Origin: Eledone cirrhosa
Taxonomy: Eukaryota
Assembly (NCBI GenBank): GCA_964016885.1
Contig: OZ024742.1
Coordinates: 78,616,001 to 78,680,000 of the forward strand
DNA length: 64,000 nucleotides
Direction of reading: 5' to 3'
Positions 28,261-60,058 of the stretch are shown piece after piece (the first letter of the stretch is position 1; each line of letters starts with the position of its first letter). The notes beneath the pieces were generated by a model, which was not told the DNA's origin, searched no databases, and saw nothing but the letters and a program-made list of their open reading frames with translations. Made by a program: the position numbers and the translations under genes.

Positions 28261-28960
28261 CGTTTAACGTCCATTTTCCACGCTAGAGCAGAGGAGGGTA
28301 TAGAGGTAGACTGAGAAAGAGGGTGGGAGTATAGTTTTGTCTATCTATTGTTTGTTCATTTAATCTGCTCTCCATACACAATCACCTATATAAGGTAGAA
28401 GCCACTTATTGGGATCACATTGGGACAGAAGAGGGAAAGGTAGGTGGAAGCTTTAGATAACATTAAGCAGCTGATAATATTAAGTGGAAAGATATAGCGA
28501 TCTACTGAACATTTATAGAACAGTTTCTTTAGAGTTTCTTTAGAACAATAACTGTTTGATAACTATATTTATGATAATATGTTTGATCAATCATATGAGT
28601 GTGTGTATGTGTGTGTATGTGTGTGTATGCATGTAATGTGTATGTATGTATGTGTGTATGTAATGTGAGTATGTATGTATAGTTGTTTTATTTTGTGTTC
28701 CAGTTGATATCCACCCAACAATGTGGTACTTTCGTGAGGTGCTCCTTTTGAGAGATACCATTTTTGGTAAGTAAAACACCACAAGGTATTTTGTCCTCTG
28801 GACCACGAAGACCCCAAATCAAAGAGGTACTCGATGCATGGTAAGATGCAGAGTGTGTATATTAGTGGAAATAGGGGATCTACTGTGAGCTCAGTGGTTT
28901 CAGTTAGTTACCTCTTAGCGTAACCACCGAGCTCACAGTAGATACTCTATTTCCAATAAT

Positions 28961-29329
28961 ATCATCATCACCATTTTATGTCCATTCTTCCACACTAGCA
29001 TGGGTTAGACAGGTTGTCCTGTTGTGGGCAGTGCCCAGTTGGCCGACCTTGTCTTGATCATACGGGAACTGATTCTGGCTTGATTTCTACAGCTGGATGC
29101 CCTTCCTAACACCAACCTCATTTACAGTGGGTGGTGGGTGTTTTTTTTCCGTGGCGCCTACACGACGACTTTACAGTGTGGGCTGGGTGCTTTTTTGCTG
29201 TAGCACCTCCATGACCACTTTGCAGTGGGAGGGAGTGAGGGCATATTGTCTATATGCTTCAGCTTTGGTTTGTACCCATGGGAAGTCGGGTCTTCTGTAT
29301 TACTGTGTGATGCCAGAAGTCACGGTCCT
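28961..29329 (-). mobile_element. RTE 3' fragment (same subfamily as 5288-5980 and 39311-39885)
   Basis: 3'UTR identity and (CAT)n tail. Confidence 0.9.
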
Positions 29330-29545
29330 GAGAACTCAATATAATATATGTCGCTCCTAGTAGTAAATGTAATCAAAGTTTAATCCAACATTTGATAAAG
29401 TAGATGTGAATATAAATTTATATGGCGGTTAACTCTTTTACTCTTTTACCTGTTCCAGCCATCCGGCTGAGGCCACCTTAAATATATATTTATATAAATA
29501 AACTAGTTAATTACATGACCATGTTAATTCCCATTATCTCTTAAG

Positions 29546-29737
29546 GGTGGTGGATTGGCAGAATTGGTAGAGCATCGGATACTATGCTTTGCAGCATAGA
29601 GTTATGGACCTTTACGTTCTGAGTTCAAATCCTACTGAGGTCAACTTTGCCTTTTATCCTTACGGGGGTGATAAAATAAAGCACTAGTAATGCACTGGGA
29701 TAATTGCTGGCCTGGTGCCAAAAGTAGAAACAATTAT
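29546..29737 (+). mobile_element. Family-1 SINE
   Basis: Full consensus; TSD attatctcttaa. Confidence 0.9.
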
Positions 29738-29914
29738 CTCTTAACACTCTGTAAAGATTTGGCAGAAAATATCTAAAAAGAAGTATATAAATACAAATAT
29801 TTATAATATCTTTAATAGTAGACAGATTGTTGTGAAAATTTAGAGTATTAGAACAAAGACTTTAATTTTAAATGTGATACAATCATATGAGCTGCTTTAT
29901 ACTTTTAAAAAGGC

Positions 29915-30205
29915 AGTGAATTGGCTGAGTCATTAGAATGTCAGAATTCTTTGCAGTATTTATTCTGACTCTTTGCTCTCAGAGTTCAAATCGTGCCAAT
30001 GTCAACTTTGTCTTTCTTCCATTTAAGTTCAATAAAAAAAAGTCTATATCTCTTTCTCCCTTCCTTTCCTTCCATGAAAAAATCTGCTGTATTCAGACCT
30101 GGAGAAGAGATGGGTTCTTCCAAGTTTTAAAATGTCCTAGAAACGCTGTATGTGAATATGGTACCCCTATGGCTACCTCAGGTGTTAAGGGTCCATACAT
30201 ACATA
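29915..30205 (+). mobile_element. SINE variant with a family-1-like head and a different 3' tail (also about 31740-32065 and 49165-49530)
   Basis: Three copies share ttca(g/a)acctggagag...aaatg(c/t)c...tcaggagtta...ccatacat. Confidence 0.7.
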
Positions 30206-30685
30206 TACTTTTAAAAAATGCTTAGCTAAATCAGTTTCTTGTAGTACAGAACGTCCAACCATTTCAAAAATACCAACTTGACATGAATATATAGACCAGT
30301 GTTCAAATCCAGCAAGAGTTAATAGTTCTTCTATCCAGTGCTTGTAAAATTAATATATTGCTGTCAATGAAACTGATTCAATTCATTTTCCCCACATAAA
30401 AAAAAAAAATGGCTTCCTGCCAAGTGAAAAAGAAGTCATTAATAGTAGTATTATCTCATGATAAAAATAGTTGCTATAATCTTCAGATCTACAGAGAGAT
30501 GGCCAAAACTGTGATTGTTTGAATTCTAGTGAGAGATGATGGTTGTTAATACCAGTTTGAGAGCAACACACAAACAAAATGGAAGATGACTGCAGCAGGT
30601 GCATAGGTGCAGTCTTTTGTTTAACTAGACAGACAGAGGTCAGATATCTAGTCATTTATTTTATTGTGTGTGTGTGTGTATATAT

Positions 30686-30753
<68 letters not shown>

Positions 30754-32990
30754 TCTATGGTACTGAGACCACAAATCATTGGAGTAATCACAAGCTCAAG
30801 CTGCTTGGTGGTTTTGCAGTGAAGTTCATGCCTCTCTCTCTGTTTGGTGGCACTCATTTCTAACCATCCACAGAGTAATCATGTATCCCTCAAATTGCAA
30901 GTTATTGTTTGAAATAAACAATGGTTCCTTGAACATGTGTGATCTCTGCTATCATCATCATCCTCATTTTCATTTTCATTTAGCATCCATTTTCCTACCT
31001 AGCAAGGGTGGGATGTGTTTTCACTGACCAGGTCAGTTCTCAAGAAAATGACCCTGCACTCAACCGAGCACTCAGATGGGCTGGATACCTGATCACACTT
31101 ATGTACATTTCTGCACTCTACTGAGTGCACATCATGGAATCGGTACTAGGGAGAGTGTCAGATGATTGGTGCAGTTGAAGTGTCATCCAATAATTTTTTT
31201 TTGTGGGGGTAGGGCAGAAAGTCATTTAATTCAACCCCAGTGTGTTACTAGTACAATATTTTATCGATGCCATAAGGATAAAAAGCAAAGCTAACCTCAG
31301 AGGAATTTGAACCCAGAATTTAAAGGGCTGTAATTCTACTGAGTGCACTTATCATTGAATCAGCATTAGGGAGAGTGGCATGTCATTGACACAGCTTCAT
31401 CAGGGCAGACCTGTGTCTAAACAGTAAGAAAAACAAAGATTTGTATGAGTATGAGCGTGTGTGTGTGTGAGGGGGGGGGGATAGAGAGAGGAAAAAGAAA
31501 GAGTTTACAAATAAAACAAAATCAATAATCTAATACCATACCCTTACACCCTACCCTCAATTCTCAATAACCTTTGCATTGTAAGACTGTTTACCAGGAC
31601 TGACCTTTCCATTGAAGTTTGTGGTGTGAGCTCACAACTGGCCCATAACATTCCTTTTGATATCAATTTGCATGAAACCACTCCTGGTTTTAGGATACAA
31701 AACTGTTTATTTTAAAGTGTTTATATTTATCTAAGGCAGAATCATTAAAACATTTGATAGAATGCTTCTTGTTATTCATTTTGGATCTCTGATCTCTGAG
31801 TTCAAATCCCGCTCGGTCAACTACACCTTTCATCCATTTAAGGTCCATAAAAAAAGTACCAGTCTAGTACTGTGATTGATTATTCTTTTATATCTCTTTC
31901 ACACTTCCATTCTCCCACACTATCCTTTTCTGGAAGAAATTTGCTGTATTCAACCTGGAGAGGAGATGGGCTCTGCCACATAAAAACAAAAAAAATGCCC
32001 TACAAATGCCATATATCAGTGCAGTACCCCTATGAATCCATCAGGAGTTACAGGACCATACATACATACACATTTATCAAAAATCCTTCCATTATAATTT
32101 TATGTAAGAACCTTTGTTAAACTGCTTGAAACACCAAGTTAATGAGAATATCAATATGAAATTACCTTTATTAGTTGTTATTGTTTACTTCATAAAAGAC
32201 AAGATGGAGTAAGAGATTAAGATGAAAAGGATAGTCATTGATAGACATTGAGGAGGTCACAGAATGTATGACAAAAGAACTTTGACAAACAAACCAATAA
32301 CTAGTAATGTGAAATTAGTTATATTACTAAAACCTTCCACATTCTTGTTTATTTTCAAAATGATATGAAAATCATAGGCAGTGTCTGGAATTAGAAATAT
32401 AGTGACAAAAGGATTAATAACAGTCAGAAACACCATCCAAATATCACTCTACCCACACACTATTGTCTTTTTTAAGGAAAGGAAGCAAAGCTGAAATATC
32501 TTTTAATATAGGCTTGCCACAATGAAAATCAGTGAGTAGTATTGGTGTTAATTGTGGTAGTAGTAGTGGCAGTGGCAGTGGTGATGATGGTATTATTATT
32601 ATCATTAGTAGTAGTATTAGTAGTAGTAGTAATATAAACAGTATCTGTAACAATAGATGCCGCAACAGCCCAAAAAGCCAAGAAAAAAGATAAATAAATA
32701 AAAAGCCAAATAATAAATAATAAATAGAAACAGACACCAACAATCATTATGGCAACGATAACAACAAGAACAACAACAACGACAGTAAATCAATTATTTA
32801 TTACTCAACAGTAGACTAAATAATCTAGTGTTATTTTAACAGGCCCAAAGGGCTCTGTTAATCTTGTTTTCTTTTTCAAGACACACACCCACTACCAAAT
32901 TATCATGACTTACTTCAAAGTTTAACATGAACAAAAGTTATTTCAATAGCAATATAGATTTTTTTTTCCTCATTAGTAATATTACTATTG

Positions 32991-33027
<37 letters not shown>

Positions 33028-33167
33028 AGTATCATGAGCTATACATTCAGATTACATCTAGCCAAACTGCCATCCACTCACTCATACATATATATTTTGT
33101 TTTTCCAGGCTCTATTGTATTATTAAAGACTAACTCTTTTGTATAATTTCTAACATTTAGCTCAATT

Positions 33168-33426
33168 TAATCCTTTTGTTACCATATTTAAAAGAAAATA
33201 CACTGCCAATGATCTTCAAACCATTTTGAAAATAATCAAGGATTTGGAAGTTTTTCACAATATAACTTTATATAACTAACTTTCTCATTATTATGCTGAT
33301 GTTTCAAATAAAACTTAACAATGGTTCTTACATACAATTATAAAGGAAGGCGTTTATATAAATGCAAACACTTTTATATCATAGAGCCAGGGTCAGTTTC
33401 AGGCAATTTGGCTTCAAAGAGGGTTA
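33168..33426. mobile_element. About 250-bp TTAA-type MITE (relatives near 22265-22506, 41476-42301 interrupted, 42540-42732, 44990-45076)
   Basis: ttaatccttttgttaccatattt ... aaagagggttaa ends; shared internal ttttgaaaataatcaag. Confidence 0.6.
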
Positions 33427-33735
33427 ACAACAATGCCTGTCCATTTGATTGGAACCATTTGCACCAGATATCCATCCTCATTTCACCTTCATGCCCATTT
33501 TGCATCCCTCACAAATAGTGACCTACAATTGTTCTATTTCACCATCCATCACATCAAACTCACCGGTCAGAGAAGAACTGCAAAGGTAATTGTCATGAGG
33601 ATTCCTCAGACCAACTTATATCCAGCTGTAGAATACTTGTCAAAGAAGGGTACAGAGGACTCATAAGTTATATCAAGGACATGACCACCTCCCTAGGACC
33701 TGTGTCATGGTAAAATACTGGTGCACTCTTGAGAG

Positions 33736-34045
33736 CAGTCATGGACAACCTGCAGCCCGCAGGCCGCATGCAGCTTGTGAAGCTTTCTGAATAGCTCGCC
33801 TAAGTCACCTTAGTGAAATCTTTCTGATTTTTTTACCTCAACTTTTCAATCGTAATTCATCTTTCTATCATTGTTATGATCGAGGAAAACAATGTCGTGT
33901 ACACATTCTGAAGAAACAAATCAAAACAACCTGAGTTACCGCCCTTTTTTTTATGTGGGCACGAATGTAAATTAGCGCTTGCGGCCCACCTGATGAAGAG
34001 CCATATCTTATGCGGCCTGCTTCTCGAAAAAAGTTCTCTGTGCTT
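33736..34045. mobile_element. hAT/Charlie-like MITE, decayed
   Basis: cagtcatggacaacctgcagcccgcaggccgcatgc left end; gcggcc subterminal motifs near the right end. Confidence 0.6.
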
Positions 34046-37000
34046 TCTATAGAGTGAGGGAGCGTTTGTAAGTAAAGAATTGCCCCAACACATCTGAACG
34101 ATCATTAGCCCTAATTAAGTACCTCTTGCAGAGATGATAAATGATGGTGATGATAATAATATATATATAATACTGACTGAAAAATAACAACTGTCTAAAA
34201 CAAAAATAGATATGCCATGCTAGTTAAATCAAGTGATTCAGCCAGTGAAATCATATCACAAATATGGTTACCTAGTAGTGAAACTTTAGTCTAATGTAAG
34301 AGTTCTATACTACAACCAGGATCAGATTATTAAAGAAAACTGATGCCAGAAGTACAACCCAACAATGGTACTCCTTTCACTATTCTACTGTCTAACTGAC
34401 AAGGACATGAAAACATAATAGAAACTGACTGTGAAATAACAAATTAAACAAACAATGTACATAGCCATAGATTGGACTTTGAAGCACTGAGAATATAGAA
34501 TTAATATAAAGAATGGTGTGCTCATGTGCAGAGATGCTATAAAATAGCTTTTAAGCTATTTTATAGCATCTTTACATGAATAAATTAAAAATACTTTTTT
34601 CTTACTAGTCATCATCCTACAGGCCATACCCAATATCTATATTTATTTATCCAAAACTTATAGCAATAAGCAATATAAACAAATTGTTTACTTATAATTA
34701 GGGCAACAAGAAAAGAAAAAAGCAGAAAATATTCCACACTTTTTTTATTCATAAAAAAAAAAAAAAATCATAATTTGCCATTTGCAGCATAGTAAATCTG
34801 GCAGTGGGGAAAAAAAACTCTGTGGTGCTCCCTTCTTTTGGTACACTATTCATATGCATAATTTGTTAAAAGGTTATTCCATCCCTGTCATTACTAATAA
34901 AAATATTGTGCACAAATGGCAAGCATCGTTACACTAAATATGCAAGGCATTTCACCCAAGACTCAACTGATTCTGCCAATGTAATCACTATTAATCATCC
35001 GTTAAAGCTGACAACTTAAAGACCATTTAAATTTTCCCCAAGCACACATTATGGTTTTTTTTCAATTCGTTGTGAGGAAAGGTGCTCAAATAGTTGCAGC
35101 ACTGTGGACTCTGTTAAAGGCACCCAAGGGAAAGGTTACGTTATGAAACTAAGTGACAGATTAAATCTGCCATTCATATAGGCCACAACAAAGAGCTATA
35201 ACAAATACAGTAAGACATCTAATATGATCTTTTAATAATGCCACTTATCCACTGCTATTTGCTGGTACTTTATTCATATTGATCCCAGAAAGTTGAAGGA
35301 TAAATTTGACCTTGGCAGGATCAGAATTAAGAGTGTATGGAGCTGGAATATATTATGCAGAGCTTTTTGTCCAATACTCTTAACACTTCTACCAATATGC
35401 TGCCTGACCACGTTATAATTTAACGTGGGATATATATCTTAATTTCAACTTGCGATAGTAGTGGTTTTAGGGTTGGTGGTGGTGATAGTAATAGTAGCAG
35501 TAGGGTGTGGATCATTCTGATGGTATTTTGTGATGGTAATGGTATTGGTAATGCCTGACCATTTTGAAAATTAAGCTTCCAACATACCTGGAACTCTACA
35601 ACCACCATTCTTCTTTTACCCATGCCTTAAATCTTCCTGATCCCCATGCGTTTGCTTCAATAAATAAAGCTGCCTACATTATATATATTCATCACTACAC
35701 TACTATCATATATCTACCATTTTACCATAATACACCACCACATCATCAAGGCTAAGATGATTTACTACCACCACATCTACAGTATCAAATCAACTACAAG
35801 AGTCACCCATATTTGTACAGCATAACCAATTAAATTACCAACAAACAGACCACACTGCCACCAGCTCTACTGCAACAATAACATTCACAAGCCCACACCT
35901 ATTATAATTATACCCAGAGTCTCTGAGAGGAGAAAAACAAATGAATGATAGGTTATTTTTCTTTGGTGAACCAATTAAAACTGCTTATATTAAAACTACT
36001 GCCAACAACAACAAATACGACTCACCACCCAAATCGCTATGAACAATAAGAAAACACCAACATTAACCAAGTCCCCAACACCACAACTGATACCTGTCAT
36101 CATCATCACCTACAACAAATGAGATAATGAGGGAGTCCCAATATGGCCAATCAATTTGCTAGAAATAGCAGACTAATCTCTCTCAAATCAAGAGCCGATG
36201 AGGGAACATTTATCCTCAGCTTCATCATCATCAGCATCATTTCAATGTCATCTTTCCCTGCTAGCAAGAGTTGGATGGGACTACATAGACCATGTCAGTA
36301 CTGAAGTAGTGGCTACTGCTTTCGCAGACAATCCAGGGATCTGCCATTTTGCTTACATACAGTCTCTATGTTGTTGTTATCTAAAAAGGAAGGGTACATA
36401 GTACATTTATTACTACATTATCCCATGTCTGAAATTAAGAAGGATGTTCATACCTGAAACACCTTTGTCCACAGGTTTTCTCAATCAAGTCTGACATAAG
36501 ACCCAACAACAAGGGAACTTCTATAAATTTGCCCAAACTGGTAAAAATAGCAACCCAATTTCTCCTCAAATCACACTAACTAATAACAAAACCATACATT
36601 AGATAATGTAGTTCTAAATATAAGAACACTGGATGGTCATGGCTGGAATCACTTTAGCCATAGGTCTACTTAAGGTTGACCTTGAACTAAACAAAAACAG
36701 TATCAGCAGCAGCATTCACCCAATATATCAATACCAGTAACTATATCAATATTAGAATTAAAAACATTCTATGTGATCACTTGACCTGCTAGCGTTAGCA
36801 GTTATATCATATTCTACTATCTCAAAATGGGTGGAACACATTGGGTAAGATAGTGGTAGATATGTAAATGTGGTTGGCGTTAGGAATAGCATCCAGCTGT
36901 AGAAACCAAACCAGAAACAGTTTGGAATGAGCATGACATGGTCACCTATTCTGACTTGCTTCAAATGGGATAACTCATCTAATCCAAGCTAGCATGGAAA

Positions 37001-37208
37001 AATGGACGTCAAACAGTTATGATGATGAAAGAGAGAATGGTCAACATTGAAAGAAGTTCTTCTCAGTTGGGCTGCCAAATGCCTAAATAACAATACTATC
37101 AATTCTTTTCCACATAAAACTAACACCTGGTTCCACTTAACAACACTATCCATTATGTCAACACAATAAAAGCCCTACTAATTCTACCCACACAACAACA
37201 CAAACACA

Positions 37209-37410
37209 TGTGCCCACTATACATTGTCAACATACCAGCATCACCACCAATTCTACCCACCCATCAACAACCACGCTAACAACTGTGCCCACTATGTCGA
37301 CATACCAACAGCACCACCAATTCTACCCACCCATCAACAACCACGCTAACAACTGTGCCCACTATGTCGACATACCAACAGCACCACCAATTCTACCCAC
37401 CCATCAACAA
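37209..37410. repeat. 70-bp tandem repeat, about 3 units
   Basis: ccatcaacaa at 37261, 37331 and 37401. Confidence 0.9.
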
Positions 37411-37668
37411 CTGCAACATAAACAGCTATTACATTATACTACATTACTGCTACTGTAGCTATTACTACATGCTACAATACAGCTACTACCACTACCCATT
37501 ACATATCCACCTCTATGTCTGCCCATCTTCAGTATTATATTATCACACATCATTCATATAGCAATCACCACAATTAGCTTAGCAACACTAAAATTCAAGA
37601 CAAGAGATAATTATTCCTGTCAGTCAATGGTTTGTGTATATATATATATATGCATGCCAATGTGTGTG

Positions 37669-37727
<59 letters not shown>

Positions 37728-38315: not shown

Positions 38316-38346
<31 letters not shown>

Positions 38347-40121: not shown

Positions 40122-40153
<32 letters not shown>

Positions 40154-40156
<3 letters not shown>

Positions 40157-40595: not shown

Positions 40596-40963
40596 GACAA
40601 GTAAAATATGTTTTGAAACAGTGAGCAGGCTTGAAATTAGAAAATAGAATAGCTTTCACCGTATTTTTTGACTAAAGAAATTTTAGTCTGATAATGGGGT
40701 TTAGAACCCTCAGATAAATGGAAAAAGATGAGTATTGACGTAGATGGGAATCGAACCCACATCTTTGGTTATCCAGACCACTGTGCTACCATTTACAACA
40801 ACATATCATGTTGGTGTAAATGGTAGCACAGTGGTCTGGATAACCAAAGATGTGGGTTCGACTCCCATGTATGTCAATACTCATCTTTTTCCATTTATCT
40901 GAGGGTTCTAAACCCCATTATCAGACTAAAATTTCTTTAGTAAAAAAATACGGTGAAAGCTAT
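40596..40963. mobile_element. Asymmetric palindromic element with back-to-back tRNA-like heads
   Basis: Arms 40649-40804 and 40808-40963, 53-bp one-sided tail 40596-40648, (TA)n on both sides. Confidence 0.8.
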
Positions 40964-40989
40964 ATATATATATATACATATACACACAT

Positions 40990-47530: not shown

Positions 47531-48361
47531 ATTCTGCATACAAAGTTCACTCACAAGACAATGGTTGTTTGGCTGACTGGCTGGCTGGTCAGTTTCTTGA
47601 TTGACATGAGTCTAACTTGCTCAAGGTGCTGCACAGTAGGATAAACTTTGAAATCACAAATACATGGTTATAAGACAAGCTTCTTAATCATATAAACTTG
47701 CCTGTGACTATGATTATTAATTACTTAAATCCTGGTTCAATTATTTATCTTTGTTCTTCCTTAAGCAAACCACAATTATTCCAACAGCCAAAACTGATCT
47801 ATCTCTAATTACAGACTAATAAGACAACTCATCTTCCATTTCAACAGTATAATTAAGATTATTGTATTTTTAATAGCTGAGAGGCCATAACCTACCAAGG
47901 TGAACTTATTAGAAGCAAGCTTTTTTCATTATGCATAGAATGTAAGTTGCTTCTTTTGAAAGACAATTTTAGAATTGTTTGCATGTTTTTGACTTGCTAT
48001 TCTCTGCCACTTGGTAATCAATAATAGCCATTATGTATTCTGCAAAGGAAAAACTTGATTGATGCTTTTATAAAGTTTTCTTATCTTGCCTATTAACATA
48101 TATGAATGCTGTCTAGATGATGACCGAGACAAATTGAAAGATTCTCTGATTTATCAACTCGATTTCAGTCTGACATTATATCTAAAGTATATATCAAATC
48201 ACTTTTTTAACATTTTACTGTGAATTCATTTTCGAAGAAACATATATGCATGCACACAAACACACACGTATATATTTAACATATACATTATATATATAGA
48301 AATTACTTATACAAGACTAGAACTGTTTCAATCATATGATATCATACAAATGAAACAGTTC

Positions 48362-48553
48362 TATAATAATTGTTTCTACTTTTGGCACAAGGCCAGCAAT
48401 TATCCCAGTGTATTACTGGTATTTTATTTTATCGACCCCGTAAGGATGAAAGGCAAAGTTAACCTCGGCGGGATTTGAACTCAGATCATAAAAGGCCATA
48501 ACTCTTTGCTGCAAAGCATGATGTCCGGCCCTCAACCAATACTGTCAATCCAC
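48362..48553 (-). mobile_element. Family-1 SINE
   Basis: Full reverse-complement consensus. Confidence 0.9.
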
Positions 48554-50451
48554 TGAATGATGACTATACTCTACCAATGTATTGAGTATTTTTTTAACTG
48601 TTGTTACCCCCGGCACAACTCGGGAATCTACATATTTTATATATATATATATATACATACGTACATTCGTTGTAGCACCAAGGTGACCATCTACCAGTCC
48701 ACACTGTAATGCCATTAGTGTTAGGAAAGGCATCCAGTCATAGAAACTTAACCAAAATACAGATCTGTATGAGCAAGAAGTGGTCACCTGACTTGATTTG
48801 TCTCAACATAATAAAGTGTCTAACCCTTGCAAGCATGGCCATTAAATGATGATAGTGATGATATATATCCACACATATTTCTATTATGATTTGAACTCAG
48901 AATGCATTTAATCAGAATAAATAATAGTGCAAAGTATTTTCATCTGATATGCTATTGCTTCTGCCAATTCATCACCTTGAACAGATGAAAGACAAAGTCA
49001 ACCCAGGTGTGATGGTGAGTGGGTGAACAATCTTTAAGGAGCAATATTTATGGAGAAATACTGCATCTCAAGTAAGCTGGTTTCAAAGTGTTCCAAATAT
49101 TTTCATTGGAATGTCCTATTTCACCTTTGTCAACAAACATTAACTGACATTATTTTCTAAATGGCAGTATATTGGCAGTCATTAGGAGCGTGGATATAAT
49201 TTGTGTTGTTTTCATTCCAGCTGTCTGTGCTTTGAGTTCAAATCCCATGGAGATCAAATTTGCCTTTCATCCTTTCAAAGTTGATTAGGTATCAGCCCAG
49301 TATTGTGTGAGGTAAGATTGATTCTTCTTCTATATCGTTTCTCACTCCACTCATCTCTCTCACTCTTGTGTTAAACAGATGTAAAATGATGATGATGATG
49401 ATGATGATGATAAAATCAACTGTGTTCAGACCTGGAGAGGGATAGGTACCACCAAGTTTAAATGCCTAAGGCAAGACGTATATCAGTACGGTGTATCTAG
49501 AATTCTGTCAGGAGTTAAGGACCCGTACATGCATTTTCTAAATAAAATATATTTTACCCTGATCACAATACTGATCAATAACCGAGTTCTACAATCAGTT
49601 TTGTTCATCACTATCGACATGGTCATTTTCACCAACCTCATTGTTGTTGATATCATCACTGTTGTTATATTTCTTTACAGAGAACTCAATTTGTTGACCA
49701 TGCAATTTAACTAACACAATTAATTAAAATTGTATTTTTAGAAATACAATAAACTGCCCATTTTATTTATGTTGTCATCTTCACCATCATCATCATCAAC
49801 ATCATCATTCTTCCTGTAGTAATATCTATACAGATGACCAATTACATAGCTTGACTTCAAACTGACAATAACTTCCCTTTGGGGTCAAAGAGCTGTGGTT
49901 AAGTGATTTAATAATCTTCGTTTCTTAGATGTAAATATACAATATTGATTTTTAACATTGGTACAAGGCTACACGTTAGGTAGTTGCTGGGGGAGTGACT
50001 TTAAATTAAGTCCAGTACCTAAAAGGCATACAGCCTATTAGTTAAAACTGTTGGCTTCATAACCCTAAGGTTGTGTGTTTGATCGCTGTGCCTTAAGGCA
50101 CGCTGTGTCTTTAAGAAAGCCAATCCATTTTCATTGCTCTAGTCCACTTTGCTGGAATGAGTATCCTCAGCTGCTGGAGTTAACCTTTTGACAAACTGAA
50201 AGGAGTTTTGTAATTTCAGTCACTTAATGCCATATGAAACATTAGATCAATCATGACAAACCACTTGGCTCAAGAAAGACTTTCTTTTTTAATACGACTA
50301 CAACATTATTTTATCAATCCCAGAATGTTGAAAAATAAAGCTGACCTCGGCAGGAGTTAGACATTCTCTAAAGAGACAGAACTAATATGACAAGGCATTT
50401 TTTCTGACACTGATGATTCTATCAATGCCCTACCCTTCTAATAATAATAAT

Positions 50452-50790
50452 AATAATAATAATTGTTTCTACTTTAGGCACAAGGCCAGCAATTATCCAA
50501 TACATTACTGGTACTTTATTTTATCAACCCTGTAAGGATGAAAGGCAAAGTCAACCTCGGCAGGATTTGAACTCAGATCGTAAAGGGACGTAACTATGCT
50601 GGAAAGCATAGCGTCCGACTCTCTACCGATACTGCCAATCCACCTAATAATAATGGTTTCTGATTTAGGCACAAGGCCAACAATTTTGGAGGGAGGAGAA
50701 AGTCAATTAAATATAACTATGTGCATTACTGGTAATTTATTTTATCAACTCTGTGAGGATGAAAGCCAAAGCAAACCTCAGCAGAATTTG
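50452..50790 (-). mobile_element. Young family-1 SINE (50452-50643) adjoining the tail of an older SINE
   Basis: Consensus motifs; taataataat on both sides. Confidence 0.85.
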
Positions 50791-52138
50791 ACCTCAGTAT
50801 GTTCTACCACTACTGTCAACGCCCCACCCTTTTATCTCTTTTACATTCATCAACATCATCATCATCACCACATTGAGTATCAGAAATGCACTCTTTTAAA
50901 ATATAGGTTTAATGACATAGCTCGCAAATAATTCATTGTTTATGTGGACATTTGTTCAGGAATTTAGAAAAACATACTTTAGAGAAACACACTAACACTA
51001 TTACATTATACACTTGAATATAAGACAGAGAATATGTGATGAAAAAGAAAATCGATCGTAAGGGGTGGGAGGGGATTCGGCTTATATACGCCATCTAACA
51101 CTATGTTGATTAGCTGCTTTGGCTTATAAAGGCGATTTTGTTTTTGCCCATTTCTCAGACAAAATAGGAGAGGGGTGACTTATATTCGAGTCAGCTTATA
51201 TTTGGATTGGCTTTCATTCGAGTATATATGGTATATTCTCTGTGGAGCATATTTGTATGTCATGTTACCAACTATGAATCCATGTATATCAGGACTTATA
51301 TATATGTATGTATATACGTATAAATGTATGCATGGATTTACTGGTTAGGGTGTTTGGCTCATGATCGTAAGGTCATGAATTTGTTTCTGCACAGAACATT
51401 GTATCCTTGAACAAGACTATTTATTTGATGTTAAAAATGAGCTGCACCTGTATTTCAAAGAGCCAGCCAACGACAGATGGTGTCAAACTGAATCTCCCTG
51501 AGAGCTATGTAACTTACAGTTGCACATATATGTAGAATTTTCTCAGTCACATACATGTTAATTATATGAGTAGAATGCTTCATTGTTCACACAACTAGGA
51601 CAATCAACAGAGGTCCACCACACACACACACACTCACTCATACACATGTATAACACCATTTTTATGTTTATATTCCCATGATTGCATTGGGAGTACAGTT
51701 TTCAGATATACATCCACGAAAATATAAATATATATATATAAATGTGTGTGTATATATGTATATATATATATATATAAATATATATATAAATGTGTATGTG
51801 TACTGAGATGAATTACAACAATAACACCACCGACCACCAAAAATAACAGAACATGTTTGCATTTTCATTTAAACCATTTTCTTTTTCTAACAGTCTTTTC
51901 TCACTTTTTTAGTGTTCTGTAATACTTGTTCTGTAATAATATCATATATTTACATCTGGATGATAAAATATAATATTCAAAAAGAAACAATTGCGAAAAC
52001 AAAGAAATAAAAATGAGAGAAAGAGAAGACAAAGAAAACTATAGTAATGTAGAGTGTAAAAAAAAACAAAAAAAACCTACATACAAAGGCACAAAAGTAC
52101 ATGTGTGTGTGTATGTATATATAAATATATATATATAT

Positions 52139-52394
52139 TGCTAGAATGTATGGTTGTAAACACTAAAGAAAGAGCCCTGAATTGAATAAAATACATGGCA
52201 AACTGGTACCTTCTAAGGTACTCAGAGTTTCCTGAAGTTGTTTTCACCACTGGTAATAATACTTCAGAGGACACCCTCCTGAAGTATTACCAGTGGTGAC
52301 TTTCTGAAAGCTGAAGAATGATGTGAAAACAACCTCAGGAAACTCTGAGAACCTTAGAAGGTTTATGCCAATTTGCCATATATTTTATTCAATT
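52139..52394. mobile_element. Asymmetric palindromic element in (TA)n
   Basis: Arms 52180-52270 and 52275-52394 (right arm has about 27 extra bp), left tail about 41 bp. Confidence 0.8.
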
Positions 52395-52619
52395 TATATA
52401 TATATATATATTCATTGTGTGTGTGAAGGCACATGGATTAGTAGTTAAAGATTTTAGATCATGATCTTAAGGTTTGAATCTGATTCTTGGTGGCATGCTA
52501 TGTCCTTGAGTAAGACACTTATTTCATATTACTCCAGTCCACTCAGTTCGAAAAAATGTCATGGAACCAAGATATTTGAAATCATGCACTACAGCCAGCT
52601 CATAATTTTTGATAGTAAT

Positions 52620-53580
52620 GGCAGGAGGGTATTCAGAAATTGACCAACACTGGCTTTTTCAGAAAAAAAGCTGAGCTGAAGTCTTGGCACGATCTTGAAA
52701 AGTTATCCAACATGCATTGTAGCCACTCCTGTTAGTGTGTGGTCAGTGCCAGTTCATCTGCTAACATGTTCCTGACAAATACTTCACATTACCTTGGTTT
52801 TCATCATCAGTGGAGACAAGCTGAACAGTTCCTTCTGAAATCTTGGGTGAAGGTAGACACTGTCAGTTGATGTGTTAAATGTGTGGTTAAGCATTATGGT
52901 GAAGGAGATGCCAAAGAAGGTAGGAGCAAGCACATATCCCTGTTTCACACTGTTTAAGATGTTGAAGCCTTCAGAAGAAGAATTGTCAAGCTGAATGACT
53001 CTCTTCATAATCATGTGAAATAACTAAACTATACTGAGGTGCCTCAGGGTACAGCCAACCCTGGCAAGAAATTTAAACAATTTCTACACACAAGGATAAC
53101 AACAGCGATATAAAGTGGTTGTCTTTGCTTTCTTCATTTCTCCAGTAATTGTTAAAGGGAAAATAACATATTGGTTATGGAGTGTTCTGGCTGGAATTGA
53201 ATTTCAGCAGTTTGATCAGAACTACCAGAGCAAAGGCTTTCACAAAAAAGCTCAGCAAAAAGCTTCATTGGTAGTTGATAAAATTATTTCTCTTATAACT
53301 TGAAGTGCTGCTCTCAGTCTCTCTCTCTCTCTCTTCACATCACTGACACAGGACAGCCTTTGCACACTTAATAGCCATTGGTATGATGCCATCCAGTCTT
53401 GGTGCTTTGTTGAGCAAGTGGTCAATGGCTGTGTTTCCCTCTGCAACAGTTGGTAATACACCAAGTTCCTCCATGTCAAGCAGGCATTCAAAAGTGTCAA
53501 GCATGCTGTCTGAGAGGCTGTATATTTGGGAGTAGAATTCAAAGTCATGCTCTACTTATCTCACCATCTGTTAGCCTTCG
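52620..53580 (-). pseudogene. Decayed BovB-like RTE reverse transcriptase fragment
   Basis: SSEGFNILNSVKQGYVLAPTFFGI...VYLHPR...LFSL.PL..KTKV matches the BovB-type GVKQGCVLAPTLF...LFNL.RL.AKTKV region. Confidence 0.75.
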
Positions 53581-53726
53581 TCCCTGATAGTTTTGTCTGT
53601 TGTGGTCTTCAGTGGTATTTTACACATAGAAATGCACACATACATGTGCATATAAATATAAATACAGCTACCTAAATATCACACATACTATTGATTGACT
53701 ATCTAATTTATAAATACACATATATA

Positions 53727-53882
53727 GTGGTGTAGTTAATACAAAGCATTGTGATGTATATAGTAAAAGATTGATCACTTTCAAAAAGCTGGTACAATGC
53801 TGGAGAAAAATATGAAGGGCAAATGAGGACATCATTTGATCTTCATATTTTTCTACCAGCTTTTTGAAAATTATTGGACGTT

Positions 53883-53891
<9 letters not shown>
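53727..53891. mobile_element. Small asymmetric palindromic element in (TA)n
   Basis: Arms 53757-53826 and 53832-53891, 30-bp left tail. Confidence 0.7.
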
Positions 53892-53924
<33 letters not shown>

Positions 53925-56319
53925 TTTTAGCACAAAGATGGTGTTAAATATGTTAATATATTCCTATAAAGATGAAGTTAAAATAAATATTCAAATATAT
54001 AAAAGATAGATACCCATGTGATTAGATTGTTCTTTTAATTACTACTGAATATAATATATCAGCAAGACCATGCATGGGTTGGTTTCTGATCAAACAGTAT
54101 TGTCTTTGTACTGGATTAAGTCTCCAGTTTGTAATTAGTGTATATATGTGGGAACATCTTATATAAGTATAAATCGTATAAAATTAATAAAAATAATATC
54201 AAAATATACATACCATAAATAGTAAAGATATTGCCATGTTATATATCCAGTTTAGCTATATATATATATATGGGCATATATTTACATCTGTATATGCTTT
54301 GTATGAGTAAATATATCCTCAGAAGTCAACAAGGATGATCCTGTAATTAAAAGAAAAGAAAGATTTATAAACAACCGTGAATAAATGAAAATGTATATAT
54401 TGAAAAAATTAGTCAATCTATGAACAGCAGTGAATTAGGAGATTTGGTGACATTTACAGTCTTTTGTTTTTAATTAGACTTGGGTCAACACTGATAGAGA
54501 AGTCCTATGTTCAAAATTCATATTGTTTTTTTAGAAGTAATTAAGACATTATCTAGTATGTCCTCTTTTTTAAGACAGTAGATTAAGGTTAGAGGGTATT
54601 GGGGGTTGGGGCAGGGGGTAAGGTGAGGTGTCTAACAGGTCAAGTGTGCACCAGAATGTAGCTAGAGTTTGTGTCATATGAGGTGGTCCATGATTTGCTA
54701 CTCTATACCTGACAATAAACACAATACAATACACATCAATCCTACCTAAACTGTTAAACAATAAAAACTTCTCAAAAAGTGTCATTTGTACTAAACAACC
54801 CCAACTCACATAGCTAACCTTTAGGTGCCTACATAGAAATTCCTTCATTTGATAGAATACAACTTATTAGCAAGGATAATTCCTGACCATCCCATGCATA
54901 ATACAGATAAACTATAATTCAGTCACAAACTGATCAATGCTTTATGAGTGAATTTGGTAGAAAGAAACTATGAAGAAACCTGTTTTTTGTGTGTCTGTGT
55001 GTATGTATGTATGTATGTATGTGTGTGTGTGTGTGTGTATGTATATATGTGTTTGTGTGTTGGCATCAGATAGGGCCTGTGGCTGTAGAAAGAAACATTC
55101 GAACATGCGAGCGATGGAAAAGCAATCATGAAAACGAACATGATTATGAGAGAGAGAGAGAGAATCAATGCATTGTACAAAGTGTGGTTGGTTAGAACTG
55201 TGCAGCCAGAGATAGAACATATCTTCCTCTCTAAATTCCATGACAATACTTTCCTATTCTGTTAATACAGTTCCAACAAAAGGGAGGTGGGAAAAGAAGA
55301 AAAGTGTGGGGAGAGAGAGCAAGAGAGAGAGAGTCATTTCATTGAACAATGGTCTATGGATGTGTATGGACAGTTAAAGCTTTGTGGTCAGAGATGGAAA
55401 AGTCTTCCTCTGCTCCATGTTTCATGCCAATATTTCCTTCTTTTGTGTAATAATTTCCAAATTCATCAACAACAAAAATATGAACGAAATATCAATGTGT
55501 TAATAAATCCATTTAAATATTTCCTCAGGGAATGCTAATATTAAAATTTTCTTTTAAAACCTGTATGTATATGCAAGCGTGTGTATACATGTATATGTAA
55601 TATATATATATATTACTCTGCATATGCGAAAAGGGAGGATTTTGTTTACAATTGCTGATTTCTTTGTCTTTCTTCTGTCAATGACACCCCTCCCTCTATA
55701 ATTTACTAATTCTATATGATTAAAATATACATATAGACAGATAGACACATATATGTGAGTGTATTGTTCTACAGATACACACACATATATATATATATAT
55801 ATATACATATATGAATTACAAAAATATATATGAATTACAAAAAAATACTCAATATTACTGTTTCATGGTGGATTTAAGTGAAATCCTCTAGGGAGAGTGT
55901 TTCATTAAAATTAAAAAGCTCATTAATGAAAATTTCCAAAGTAGAAATAGTCATCTAAAACAGAAAGATAAATTTCATAGCTCCATCTCATCATCTTTAT
56001 CACTTGCCAATTCACATTGTCCATCTCTGTCACTTATACACACAAATTTACACATATGTATAGACGTGCATAAACATATATTTGAAAAGTGATACATATA
56101 TATATATATTTCGTTTCTGAATTTGTTTAGCAAGATTCTTTATCTGAAAACGTGTGTTGAAACCGATATTGTTATACTTTGGGAGGGTCATGTTGCTAAT
56201 AAGAAACACACGCACCAGTTGCTTTCACTTCAATTTATTATAAATTGAATTTATAAATTTAGGAATTTATAAATTTCCGGTTGGTTGGTTGGTTCCACAA
56301 CCAGACGATTGCTCATATA

Positions 56320-56365
56320 TTGTCAAAGTTCTTTCGTCACACATTCTGTGACCTCTTCAGTGATG
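56320..56365 (-). ncRNA. Minimal hammerhead-like motif in the PLE pseudo-LTR
   Basis: Minus strand: UCA-CUGAAGA-G-GUCACA gaaug UGUGAC-GAAAG aa CUU-UGA; decayed copies near 32245-32290 and 42805-42850 (+). Confidence 0.6.
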
Positions 56366-56555
56366 GGATTCTTTTCTTTGTTTTTGTGCCTCTCCTTTGT
56401 TCTGTCTTACGCCATCTTGTTTTTGTTGTGTGCTTAGTTTGCGCATGTGTTACATCCAGGTATCTGTGTGTGTTTATATTTGTTTATTTATTTTTTTATT
56501 TACATGTTACTGGTTGGTTGTTTGTTCTATGTGTGTGTGTGTTTTCATTTTGTCC

Positions 56556-57042
56556 TTAATTGTAAGTTGTGATGTTGCTATTCCATTCATGTTTTCTATT
56601 TAATTTTGGTTGGAGTTCATTTATGTTTATTGCCTCTGTGATTTGTCTAAACATTGCATCTTTTCTGTGTGTAGATTCTATTTTTATTTCTATGTTCTCT
56701 AATTTACCCTTATTATATCTAATGTTCTATTTTAGCATGTTGGTGGAGTACAGATGATTCTTTACTATCTTGAAGCTCTCGCCAGTGTTCATTTATCCGT
56801 TCCCCTATACTACGAGCTGTCTCACCTATGTACACTATATTCTTATCTCTACATTGTCCTTCAGTACATCTTATGCTATATACTACATTTCTAGTTTTAC
56901 AGTTAATATGGGGGCTTAGTTTACAGATTATACATTTCTTATCTATACAGGGAGGTCTTTGAAAGGGGTATGTATTGCTAATAAGTGTTTTTATGGAGGT
57001 ACCTGGTCGTTTTACTATCTTAATATTGAGTTTATGTTTATC
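56556..57042 (-). pseudogene. GIY-YIG endonuclease domain of a Penelope-like element (stop/frameshift near 56720)
   Basis: Manual translation: PPCIDKKCIICKLSPHINCKTRNVVYSIRCTEGQCRDKNIVYIGETARSIGERINEH...VLHQHAKIEH* then, in a new frame, ...FRQITEAININELQPKLNRKHEW. Confidence 0.9.
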
Positions 57043-57050
57043 TATATATA

Positions 57051-57090
<40 letters not shown>

Positions 57091-57092
57091 CT

Positions 57093-57119
<27 letters not shown>

Positions 57120-57123
<4 letters not shown>

Positions 57124-57513
57124 TATTCAAAATATTAACAAATGAAGATATTCACATAATCCAAGTTTTTTCAGAACATCCTTGTCAGATAAAATATATG
57201 ATTTGGTATATGACATACCTCTACAGTCTTGATATTTCAATTCCTGTATTGGCAGGATATTGAAATATCAAGACCGTAGTGGTATGTCATATATCAAATC
57301 ATATATTTTATCTGACAAGGACGTACTGAAAAAACAACACAGTACCTTCAAAATATATATAATAAAGCATATACTTTGATTATGTGAATATCTTCATTTG
57401 TTAATATTTTGAATAATATTAAAAACCCAAGAAAAACTCTATTGTTGAGTGCTTTTAATCTATTGTAAAACTATATTCATTGAGTAATCAATGAACCATA
57501 TTAATCTTTGGTC
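57120..57513. mobile_element. Asymmetric palindromic element in (TA)n
   Basis: Arms 57120-57246 and 57253-57419 (about 40 extra bp in the right arm), right tail 57420-57513. Confidence 0.8.
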
Positions 57514-57543
57514 ATATATATATATAGAGAGATAGATAGATAT

Positions 57544-57768
57544 ATCATCATCATCATCATCACCGCTTTTCGTCCATTCTTCCATGCTAGCATGGCTTAG
57601 ACAGGTTGTCTTGTTGTGGGCAGTGTCGTCTGACCTCGTCTTGCTCATACGGGAACTGATTCTGGCTTGATTTCTACAGCTGGATGCCCTTCCTAACACC
57701 AACCTCATTTACAGTGAGTGCTGGGTGCTTTTTTGCCGTGGCACCTCCACGACCACTTTGCAGTGGAA
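57544..57768 (-). mobile_element. RTE 3'UTR fragment
   Basis: Identity to 5288-5545; (CAT)n tail. Confidence 0.88.
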
Positions 57769-58181
57769 TGATAGGGATCCCAGTCCTATCATCTCATTTC
57801 TACAGCTGAGTAAACTGGAGCAATGTAAAATATAGTGTCTTGCTCACGGAAACAACACATCACCCGGTCCGAGAATTGAACTCACAACCTTTCGATTGCA
57901 AACCCAATGCTCTAACCACTAAGTCATATGTATGTATATATATATAGATTGGAATTATATTATTTAAACTAGTGAGACCATAATTCAGTGGAGTACTCAG
58001 TACTTTGGATAGTAGTGTGTAAATATAGTAGAGTTAGGGCCCGACAGTTGAGCTCTTGCTGTGTCGACTGCAAATTCCAAACTGGAATTTGGTGACTCTC
58101 TACTATATATATATATATATATATATAATAAAGGTGTGGTAAGATACCAGGTGGACCATAATGCACCAGAGTACACTTGGG

Positions 58182-58212
<31 letters not shown>

Positions 58213-58344
58213 GTGAGGTTTTTTTTACAAAATGAAAAATAACCGAGGTGTCCTACACGAGTGGAAGTATAAAGAAAAAGGGATGAAATCGAAAATGCAA
58301 CTGAAGTCTTATTTTTTTTTAAAAATATATATATTTATTTGGTT

Positions 58345-58382
58345 CCTTTACCGGTTTCGCAGTTCTTCTGCTTTTCAAAAGG
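58345..58382 (-). ncRNA. Minimal type-I hammerhead ribozyme (left arm)
   Basis: Exact reverse complement of 59315-59352. Confidence 0.78.
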
Positions 58383-58763
58383 TGAGTTGAGATGGAGGGT
58401 CTGTGGTTTTTCTCACATCTGGTTGGTCTCTAAATGTTACTTGTTTTATATGGAAAAACTGGCTCGAAAACCAGGTTTTTCGAGAAGTAATTTGATTGGT
58501 TTGTCAATAATTATAATAAATTTCGCGCCAGTTCGCGTTACAATAGTTCTTAAAATAAGAGAGGGGGGGAGGGGTTGTCACAGGTTGTTTTTTCATATAT
58601 GAGTGTTTGAATTTCTTTTTACTTATATATATACACACACACAAAAAAAAAATATATTCTCTCTATCTAACATACTCGCACACACACACATAACACCCAT
58701 ATACACACACACACAACTCCCTCCCCCATCTCTACTAATAGAATCATCTTCCAATACACACAT

Positions 58764-58800
<37 letters not shown>

Positions 58801-59314
58801 AGCACACAAATAAACACATATCTTCAGTCTCAATAGAAAATCTGAACTCTGACACCTGAACTCTGACAGCTGGCCATATTCACTGAACCAGAACATTTCT
58901 CCCAATCCCTTTTCCCTTGACCACTATCTCTCCATTGTCATAACATTCACTATAAAGACTACAGAATAGTTTTCCAAATAAGGGCACACAAATTTAATGA
59001 AAACTTGTTCACGTGACAGCCATAATTTCATTTATAACCAACCAAAAAAAAGCCTTCGTGAGCCTCATTTTTTCAAGTAAAAAGAAATTCAAACACTCAT
59101 ATATGAAAAAACAACCTGTGACAACCCCCCCCCCTCTCTTATTTTAAGAACTATTGTAACGCGAACTGGCGCGAAATTTATTATAATTATTGACAAACCA
59201 ATCAAATTACTTCTCGAAAAACCTGGTTTTCGAGCCAGTTTTTCCATATAAAACAAGTAACATTTAGAGACCAACCAGATGTGAGAAAAACCACAGACCC
59301 TCCATCTCAACTCA

Positions 59315-59352
59315 CCTTTTGAAAAGCAGAAGAACTGCGAAACCGGTAAAGG
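59315..59352 (+). ncRNA. Minimal type-I hammerhead ribozyme (right arm)
   Basis: CCUU-UUGAAAA-GCAG aagaa CUGC-GAAACCGGU-A-AAGG: stems I and II pair, stem III is the palindrome ACCGGU, cleavage triplet GUA. Confidence 0.78.
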
Positions 59353-59443
59353 AACCAAATAAATATATATATTTTTAAAAAAAATAAGACTTCAGTTGCA
59401 TTTTCGATTTCATCCCTTTTTCTTTATATATATATATATATAT

Positions 59444-59748
59444 AAAGTGGTCATGTAGGGGTCACGACAAAAAGCGCTCAGGCCACACTGTAAAATGCTT
59501 GTGTAGGTGTCACGACAAAAGGCACCCAGTTCATGCTGTAAAGTGGTCGCATAGGCGACACGCAAAAACACCCAGCACACACTGTAAATGTGGTTGGCAT
59601 TAGGAAGGGCCTCCAACCATAGAATCCAAGCCAAAATCATTTCAGTGTGAGCAAATCACGGTCCCCCGACCAGATGTCTCACAAAGGGACAGTCCATCCT
59701 ACCCATGTTAGCGTGGAAGATGGATGTTAAATGATGATGATGATGATA
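59444..59748 (+). mobile_element. RTE 3'UTR fragment
   Basis: Internal about 40-bp repeats, gtggttggcattaggaagggc, (TGA)n tail; TA-rich flanks. Confidence 0.85.
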
Positions 59749-60058
59749 TATACATAAATATACATATAGTGAAGACTTAGAATCCAGACCACGCACCCAC
59801 AGGTTTTAGCTTATTGTCTCAAGCTTTCTCAAAAGTACCTATTTGGCAATTCCATCATGCCGGATAGGTACTTTGAGTACTTCACTGATTTGTGGTCTTC
59901 CTGGTTTTCATACTGCATAAACTCCACACACACCTGTATATAGTTATTTCTCATTCTTTGTCTTACCCTTATTTTGTATATATGTGTGTATGCATGTGTG
60001 TGAGCATACCTGTTAACAGAATAAGAAAAGAAAGGTTTTATGATTATATATATATAGT

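What the first reader, a model, noticed from the sequence alone, without database searches (positions are those of the whole stretch)
28683..59940. A recurring architecture: unrelated 'asymmetric palindromes' (arm, inverted arm, one-sided tail) embedded in (TA)n
Seen in at least seven elements with unrelated sequences: 28683-28962, 40596-40963, 48299-48363, 52139-52394, 53727-53891, 57120-57513 and 58207-59428, plus weaker cases at 57948-58105 and 59768-59940. Arms range from 13 to 355 bp. One arm ends at (TA)n or another simple-repeat junction, while the other continues 20-175 bp further before the microsatellite. In most, the short arm stops at an internal TA/ATA/TATA of the element. Ordinary MITEs are symmetric, so they do not explain this. 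Established: PLE insertions often have inverted pseudo-LTRs with a 3' tail extension on one copy. Inference: a diverse population of miniature PLE-mobilised fold-back inserts targeted to TA microsatellites, probably under-annotated, and a rich dsRNA source if transcribed.
Basis: partly seen in the sequence, partly recalled or inferred. Interest (0 to 1): 0.8.

Follow-up and report, generated by a model that had tools for sequence, protein, structure and literature searches.

The report
Penelope palindromes, one carrying tRNA mimic
The lopsided palindromes are real, repeated across this animal genome, and have the known insertion shape of Penelope-like retrotransposons, and one of them is a short non-coding repeat with a tRNA-shaped fold and no detectable ribozyme that is likely copied by the same machinery.

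Summary
The architecture is real. The seven main palindromes beat their shuffles; six searched are genome-wide repeat families. It is the published signature of Penelope-like element (PLE) insertions: two 5'-truncated copies joined head to head, with a tail between two internal reverse-transcription start sites on one copy, in (TA)n. Two elements trace to protein-coding PLEs: 58207-59428 is the 3' UTR of a Neptune-type element, 57120-57513 that of a Hydra-type element. These two are truncated ends of long elements, not miniatures. Hammerhead motifs lie upstream of the short-arm end in five families. Some boundaries need correcting (28683 tail about 60 bp; 48299 element split by a SINE). The new part is 40596-40963: a 260-272 bp non-coding unit in tandem arrays and palindromes, with no hammerhead, a conserved tRNA cloverleaf and a covarying stem spanning the tail. 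It is likely a PLE-mobilised, retrozyme-like passenger; its partner and expression are untested. The dsRNA claim is untested.

The parts
58207..58267 (-). Tail (about 62-65 nt) of the Neptune-type PLE, ending in (TA)n
58268..58624 (-). Tail-bearing 5'-truncated copy of the Neptune-type 3' UTR; hammerhead variant at 58349-58378
58625..59428 (+). Second 5'-truncated copy (800 nt of 3' UTR) ending at internal site X, then (TA)n; hammerhead variant at 59319-59348
57120..57513 (+). Hydra-type PLE 3' UTR palindrome: inverted short arm 57120-57246 (about 44-bp deletion), sense arm 57253-57419 with decayed hammerhead about 57312-57360, tail 57420-57513
40596..40963 (-). Palindrome of the 260-272 bp non-coding tandem unit: tail 40596-40648, arms 40649-40802 and 40810-40963
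40805..40876 (+). tRNA-like cloverleaf, GGA anticodon, short variable loop; mirror copy at 40736-40805 on the minus strand
52139..52394 (-). PLE-type palindrome; tail 52139-52179 shortened by an internal deletion; decayed hammerhead core about 52311-52351 (+)
53727..53891 (-). PLE-type palindrome from the 3' end of a longer family; tail about 30 nt on the left
28799..28962 (-). Short PLE-type palindrome, arms 28859-28899 and 28922-28962, tail about 60 nt; fold point inside a hammerhead-like core
48299..48640 (+). Hammerhead-bearing PLE-type palindrome (arms 48318-48363), interrupted by a SINE at 48363-48561; tail about 48562-48640
57948..58105 (-). Decayed member of a very abundant family of about 170-bp palindromes with tail
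58128..58181 (-). Tail-only fragment of the same family, between two (TA)n runs
59768..59930 (+). Decayed relative of the 28799 family (shared tail; left part matches one other locus)
1..64 (+). Right end of a second Neptune-family palindrome with tail that begins about 280 bp before the window
   Evidence: L259

Best explanation
These elements are head-to-head pairs of 5'-truncated Penelope-like element 3' ends, likely made in single insertion events in which both strands of a cut (TA)n site prime reverse transcription at two internal sites of the element RNA. One cDNA would start at the tail end and the other at site X, 30-95 nt upstream, so only one arm carries the tail. Each cDNA stops early and the two 3' ends are joined, preferentially at short self-complementary words, which gives the fold point. 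Shown here: family membership, fixed 3' ends, variable junctions, (TA)n flanks, ORF links for two families, hammerhead motifs. Taken from in vitro work on another PLE (PMC11167929): both-strand priming at two internal sites. Inferred: end-joining of two cDNAs. The 40596 family is a non-coding 260-272 bp tandem unit that inserts the same way. It is likely a passenger of an unidentified PLE enzyme, its covarying 3' stem-loop would be the docking and priming signal, and its tRNA cloverleaf would supply a Pol III promoter and/or RNase P/Z cut sites in place of the hammerhead.
For: ORF links: a 775-aa stop-to-stop ORF with RT and C-terminal GIY-YIG lies directly upstream of the 58207 sequence; copies of the 57124 family run up to 1.4 kb upstream into a Hydra-type endonuclease frame. 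Two discrete 3' ends: of 32 Neptune ends, 19 stop at or beside X and 13 at the tail end; the Hydra short arm ends at -94 in 11 of 16 inverted copies and at -96 to -106 in 5. Variable junctions: Neptune inverted pairs of 0.3-5.2 kb; 16 of 29 Hydra and 21 of 28 tRNA-family loci chosen by tail have an inverted arm, and either arm can be the longer. (TA)n follows 29 of 32 Neptune ends, 25 of 29 Hydra and 25 of 28 tRNA-family tail ends, against 8% background. The two arms of one insertion share variants: 51 versus 8.7 under permutation, and 47 versus 4.9. Hammerhead motif in 18 of 19 Neptune, 35 of 61 Hydra and 10 of 25 48299-family regions, shuffles at most 0.5%, antisense 0. tRNA family: tandems up to 9 full plus 2 partial units; RF00005 at 36-51 bits; cloverleaf plus extension stem 102 of 108 columns identical between subfamilies versus 125 of 165 elsewhere; one 3' stem pair is T-A in 67 of 68 subfamily A and C-G in 32 of 33 subfamily B contexts.
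Against: No empty sites, long reads or RNA were examined. Rfam finds no hammerhead in the window or in 11 loci; the motifs come from my relaxed descriptor and were found in only 1 of 17, 2 of 19, 0 of 9 and 0 of 36 regions of the 52139, 53727, 28799 and 57948 families. A predicted hammerhead core upstream of the 57948-family stem had 0 genome matches. Five families have no ORF link. Shared arm variants could come from later arm-to-arm conversion, and unequal arms from later deletion of the apex. Snap-back self-priming (proposed in PMC3846280) is not excluded. For the tRNA family no partner was found, the covariation is one event, one change between subfamilies breaks a pair in the extension stem, and a T5 run just after the cloverleaf should stop Pol III before the tail.
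Confidence: 0.85

Rival explanations
1. PLE origin, but the inversion arises by snap-back of one cDNA on itself at a natural hairpin or microhomology, with later deletion at the apex, not by joining two cDNAs.
For: Fold points cluster at near-palindromic words and, in the 57948 family, keep a non-palindromic loop; arms share private variants; self-priming was proposed in PMC3846280.
Against: The tail-less arm often reaches further 5' than the tail-bearing arm (450 nt in the window; L178, L186, L193, L196), which one tail-primed cDNA cannot template; the test for a native hairpin context found 0 matches. This rival differs only in the joining step, so its weight overlaps with the best explanation.
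Confidence: 0.25
2. The tRNA-bearing unit is an ordinary LINE-dependent SINE or a Helitron/Helentron-type tandem repeat that merely sits in (TA)n.
For: It has A- and B-box-like motifs and no hammerhead; no PLE ORF is linked to it in 90 loci.
Against: The tRNA-like part is internal, not at a fixed 5' end; arrays are 5'-truncated at variable points; one end stops at X and the other at the tail end, also in tandem-plus-inverted loci, as in the Neptune and Hydra families. Helitron ends were not formally tested.
Confidence: 0.08
3. The palindromes are MITE or Foldback DNA transposons that move as whole units with TA duplications.
For: Palindrome-shaped queries return copies with nearly the same centre.
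Against: That constancy is largely a ranking bias: tail-only queries give solo, tandem and unequal-arm copies; two families continue into PLE ORFs; variants are shared across the arms of one insertion.
Confidence: 0.03
4. Assembly fold-back artefacts.
For: The 58207 arms are 99% identical; reads were not examined.
Against: Arms differ by up to about 25%, one element carries a later SINE insertion, and the same two 3' ends recur on many contigs.
Confidence: 0.01

Closest known systems
Neptune-clade PLEs (features as summarised in PMC8557442)
   Same: [quoted passage not shown]
   Different: Tail about 62-65 nt rather than 30-40; the hammerhead core starts with U and lacks G8, so activity is uncertain. 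No tree was built.
Hydra-clade PLEs (PMC8557442 section 11)
   Same: CxCX5C linker, no CCHH, CxxC and CxH motifs near the C-terminus, hammerhead, (TA)n insertion.
   Different: Tail 94 nt; only broken or partial ORFs were seen; abundant here (861 first-look candidates for the tail).
Poseidon PAc of Anolis (PMC11167929)
   Same: Two internal RT start sites bounding the tail, both target strands cut and extended, AT-rich target, start in a stem-loop.
   Different: PAc primes without homology to the target; here both sites coincide with short TA/AT overlaps with the (TA)n flank.
Metazoan non-LTR retrozymes (PMC7761336; bioRxiv 10.64898/2026.07.22.740005)
   Same: The 40596 family is a non-coding unit of about 260-272 bp in dispersed tandem arrays, plausibly moved by PLEs.
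   Different: No hammerhead, which defines retrozymes; it has a tRNA cloverleaf with promoter boxes, whereas retrozymes are described as lacking promoters; it also forms inverted, tailed insertions.
Schistosome SINE-like repeats Sm-alpha / Sj-alpha (PMC6765202 figure legend; tRNA ancestry recalled)
   Same: Short tandem or dispersed retroposon with an internal promoter.
   Different: They carry a hammerhead; this family does not, and it keeps a full cloverleaf on a 17-bp extension stem.
Non-autonomous Chlamys such as MRC1 (PMC8557442)
   Same: Non-autonomous PLE forming pLTRs and multicopy head-to-tail insertions without a canonical hammerhead.
   Different: Green alga; those share 3' sequence with autonomous families, none found here; no tRNA-like part is mentioned in the passage read.

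Membership tests
Endonuclease-positive PLE (58207 family) | Single ORF with RT and GIY-YIG endonuclease | tested here: met
   RVT_1 E=1.3e-6 (just under cut-off) and GIY-YIG E=3.1e-6; ORF
Endonuclease-positive PLE (58207 family) | 5'-truncated inverted or tandem copies with optional tail | tested here: met
Endonuclease-positive PLE (58207 family) | Hammerhead motif in the terminal repeat | tested here: met
   18 of 19 regions with a relaxed descriptor; variant core; not found by Rfam; cleavage untested
Neptune clade | C-terminal endonuclease with CX2-5CxxC linker and CCHH | tested here: met
   read from the translation against the features
Neptune clade | RT phylogenetic placement | not tested
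   no reference PLE proteins on hand
Hydra clade (57124 family) | CxCX5C linker, CCHH absent, CxxC and CxH motifs | tested here: met
   L256 ORF against PMC8557442 section 11; Pfam gives no match
Hydra clade (57124 family) | Hammerhead and (TA)n insertion | tested here: met
   35 of 61 regions; 25 of 29 tail ends
Hydra clade (57124 family) | RWK and DKT motifs in a full-length RT | not tested
   no full-length copy fetched
PLE (52139, 53727, 28799, 48299, 57948 families) | Link to a PLE ORF | tested here: inconclusive
   no ORF link within 1.5-kb flanks of the 52139, 28799 and 53727 loci; the 48299 and 57948 families were seen only as bystander copies; assigned by shape and hammerhead-like motifs
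Non-LTR retrozyme (40596 family) | Non-coding tandem unit of about 150-300 bp | tested here: met
   periods 260 and 271-272
Non-LTR retrozyme (40596 family) | Type I hammerhead in each unit | tested here: not met
   0 of 40 subfamily A and 0 of 40 subfamily B regions, either strand; Rfam none
Non-LTR retrozyme (40596 family) | Circular RNA intermediate | not tested
   no reads obtained
tRNA-derived SINE (40596 family) | tRNA-related region with A and B boxes | tested here: met
tRNA-derived SINE (40596 family) | tRNA head at a fixed 5' end and a single LINE-type 3' end | tested here: not met
   internal position, variable truncation, two alternative 3' ends
Decoding tRNA-Ser | Long variable arm (recalled feature) | tested here: not met
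   short variable loop in the ARAGORN and Rfam folds
MITE | Symmetric termini, moves as a fixed unit | tested here: not met

The most novel reading that the evidence does not exclude
The 40596 family is a ribozyme-free retrozyme analogue: a tRNA-mimic passenger of Penelope-like elements in which host tRNA-processing enzymes (RNase P and RNase Z) or Pol III take over the job of the hammerhead, releasing unit-length or circular RNA that a PLE enzyme primes at two sites in a conserved stem-loop. It would be a SINE-like class driven by PLEs instead of LINEs, and a 270-nt natural minimal substrate for the PLE two-site priming mechanism.
Probability: 0.35. Interest if true: 0.72.

Novelty: new variant of a known kind. 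Interest (0 to 1): 0.45.

Why it matters
The general architecture is known, so that part mainly shows how densely PLE ends, probably poorly annotated, fill (TA)n tracts in this genome: about ten in 31 kb from at least seven families, giving thousands of natural junctions with which to test the two-site priming model. The tRNA-bearing passenger matters more. SINEs are defined as LINE-dependent and retrozymes as hammerhead-dependent, and this unit fits neither definition while inserting exactly like a PLE. It offers a minimal cis-acting template, with a covarying stem that points at the recognition signal, and would inflate tRNA-Ser(GGA) calls in genome annotation.

Tried and rejected
Fixed fold point as proof of whole-unit transposition: seen with palindrome queries, rejected as ranking bias after tail-only queries; the query still held 47 nt of arm. 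tRNA head as the 5' end of a plain SINE: rejected, because the unit continues upstream into its own tail. Rfam: no ribozyme family in the window or 11 loci; microRNA hits are hairpin noise. Predicted hammerhead core upstream of the 57948-family stem: 0 matches. Partner search for the tRNA family: tblastn of three PLE protein pieces against 90 loci gave three short hits that I read as bystanders, and blastn against all other loci only sister copies. Pfam on Hydra fragments: nothing above cut-off. First stem-count script matched nothing through a pattern error, repeated. No sequencing-run data were obtained, so expression, circles, editing and read support stay open. Earlier scan findings: none. 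One hammerhead paper was not held.
Full report
Setting. The window lies on a 379-Mb contig of a 3.0-Gb animal genome, G000. Its SINEs and microsatellite load look like those of an octopod; this is recalled, not tested. The window is dense in (TA)n and dispersed repeats.

Observation. The seven main elements are true inverted repeats with unpaired sequence on one side, and each beats its dinucleotide shuffles. Six were searched in the genome and are repeat families; the seventh has many relatives among fetched loci. Boundary corrections: the 28683 element begins near 28799; the 48299 element is split by a SINE and has its tail on the right. The two weak cases are decayed family members, and 57948-58105 is not significant as a palindrome on its own.

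58207-59428 is the 3' UTR of a Neptune-type PLE. Other copies carry the same 800 nt downstream of an ORF. [quoted passage not shown] Inverted pairs are 0.3 kb (L259), 1.2 kb (window), 1.8 kb (L064), 2.4 kb (L063) and 5.2 kb (L061), so the junction is set per insertion. The 3' ends are not variable: of 32 distinct ends, 19 stop at or beside internal site X and 13 run on through a 65-nt tail, and 29 of 32 are followed by at least three TA units. A minimal hammerhead variant lies about 76 nt before X in the sense strand, in 18 of 19 distinct regions.

57120-57513 is the 3' UTR of a Hydra-type PLE. A palindrome query returned 30 loci with almost the same centre, which suggested a fixed unit. A tail-only query removed most of that bias: 16 of 29 loci have an inverted arm and 13 have none within the locus, either arm can reach further 5', and four loci continue 1.2-1.4 kb upstream. 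There they enter a frame with the CxCX5C linker, no CCHH, and CxxC and CxH motifs, the Hydra features given in PMC8557442 section 11. The short arm ends 94 nt before the tail end in 11 of 16 loci and within 12 nt of that in the other 5. A hammerhead motif is found in 35 of 61 regions; the window copy has decayed.

Other families. The 48299 family has a near-canonical type I hammerhead motif in 10 of 25 regions. The 52139 and 53727 families are old and match in only 1 of 17 and 2 of 19. The 28799 family folds inside the core, so none of 9 regions is complete. The 57948 family shows only the 3' half of a hammerhead-like motif, 0 of 36 complete, and my predicted upstream core was absent from the genome. 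That family is very common: 21 matches to its tail motif turned up as bystanders in loci fetched for other reasons. None of these five was tied to an ORF, so they are assigned to PLEs by shape, target and motif only.

Mechanism. In full palindromes the two arms of one insertion differ less than arms of different insertions (2.5% versus 4.8% in 24 of 25 tRNA-family loci; 3.5% versus 5.8% in 25 of 30 Hydra loci) and share 51 and 47 variants against 8.7 and 4.9 under permutation. This fits both arms being copied from one source, though later conversion between arms would look the same. PMC11167929 (abstract, main text, part of methods) shows a purified PLE protein cutting and extending both target strands and starting at two internal RNA sites that bound the tail. 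That accounts for arm, inverted arm and one-sided tail. PMC8557442 (passages and section 11) draws this structure and reports (TA)n bias; PMC3846280 (passages) describes inverted pLTRs with a tail and proposes self-priming. I favour joining of two cDNAs because the tail-less arm often reaches further 5' than the tail-bearing one, but snap-back plus later deletion is not excluded.

The 40596 family is the new part. Its unit is 260 bp in subfamily A and 271-272 bp in subfamily B. In most of 30 loci chosen by the upstream segment, that segment is preceded by the unit's own tail, in the rest by an inverted piece of the unit or by unrelated flank, and never by a longer shared body; no PLE ORF is linked in 90 loci. 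One B array has 9 full units between a 5'-truncated unit and a unit stopping near X. Of 28 loci chosen by tail, 18 are inverted, 3 inverted plus tandem and 7 neither; fold points cluster at unit positions 57-69 (8 loci) and 123-124 (7 loci). Subfamily B behaves alike in 23 loci. No hammerhead is found in 40 A or 40 B regions. Each unit holds a full cloverleaf (RF00005 36-51 bits in tandem loci; ARAGORN tRNA-Ser GGA) with a short variable loop, so it is not a normal serine tRNA. It sits on a 17-bp extension stem (z = -2.0 for the whole unit). This part is 102 of 108 identical between subfamilies, the rest 125 of 165 (Fisher p = 3e-5, gaps counted, B taken from one array). A 7-bp stem that encloses X and much of the tail has one pair switched from T-A (67 of 68 A contexts) to C-G (32 of 33 B contexts); contexts were de-duplicated by flank, not by genome place. 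The cloverleaf lies upstream of X, roughly where other families carry the hammerhead. I infer a PLE passenger in which the tRNA fold serves as promoter or processing site. Against this: a T5 run follows the cloverleaf, one change between subfamilies breaks an extension pair, no partner was found and there are no RNA data.

Literature on novelty. Searches for Penelope with SINE, tRNA-derived, non-autonomous and palindromic (0 papers), and four looser ones (listings only unless named) showed no description of a tRNA-bearing, hammerhead-free PLE passenger. The retrozyme preprint 10.64898/2026.07.22.740005 (first fifth read, then term search) has no mention of tRNA, tail or promoter. PMC7761336, PMC6765202, PMC4209133, PMC8969392, PMC8490949 and PMC6962438 were read as passages. 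PMC13282606 (first third and passages) lists 893 unclassified SINE families among recently active insertions in an octopus; its supplements, and Repbase, were not seen and may contain this unit.

Verdict. The finding is real and mostly a known PLE signature, which alone would score about 0.25. The tRNA-bearing passenger is a new variant of non-autonomous PLE cargo and lifts the score to 0.45. The dsRNA suggestion is plausible for copies inside transcribed introns but was not tested.

Noticed in passing
window 23071-23912: Symmetric palindrome with 420-bp arms, 96% complementary, TGT...ACA ends and a 4-bp duplication CCTC; not in (TA)n. The ends resemble Ginger-type DNA transposons (recalled). 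A non-palindromic 90% relative of one arm is in L110.
   Followed up: partly
window 20555-21616 and 62962-64000: Inverted pair of about 1.07 kb at 92% identity, 41 kb apart, members of a dispersed repeat family.
   Followed up: no
L260 (G000:C4, about 61009600-61012400): The ten-unit subfamily B array is inserted directly at the tail end of a Hydra-family copy; L173 has another sister copy beside a Hydra tail. This may be shared (TA)n targeting or a hint at the partner.
   Followed up: partly
L039:2647-2749 (-): A third, 69% identical relative of the tRNA-family unit keeps the 3' stem with a G-C pair where A and B mostly have G-T.
   Followed up: partly
L062:339-1223 (-): An RT fragment of a second PLE family (Hydra-like) adjoins the Neptune-type copy; PLE families nest in each other's (TA)n flanks.
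   Followed up: no
window 7176-7816, 14507-18059, 24759-25008, 37225-37411: Minisatellites with periods of 36, 51/67/73, 22 and 70 bp.
   Followed up: no
window 34522-34579: Small unlisted palindrome of about 58 bp, 87% complementary.
   Followed up: no
window 28799, 48299, 57948 and 59768 families: Otherwise unrelated tails share a short motif around GAGTAC, possibly a common recognition signal of related PLE enzymes.
   Followed up: no
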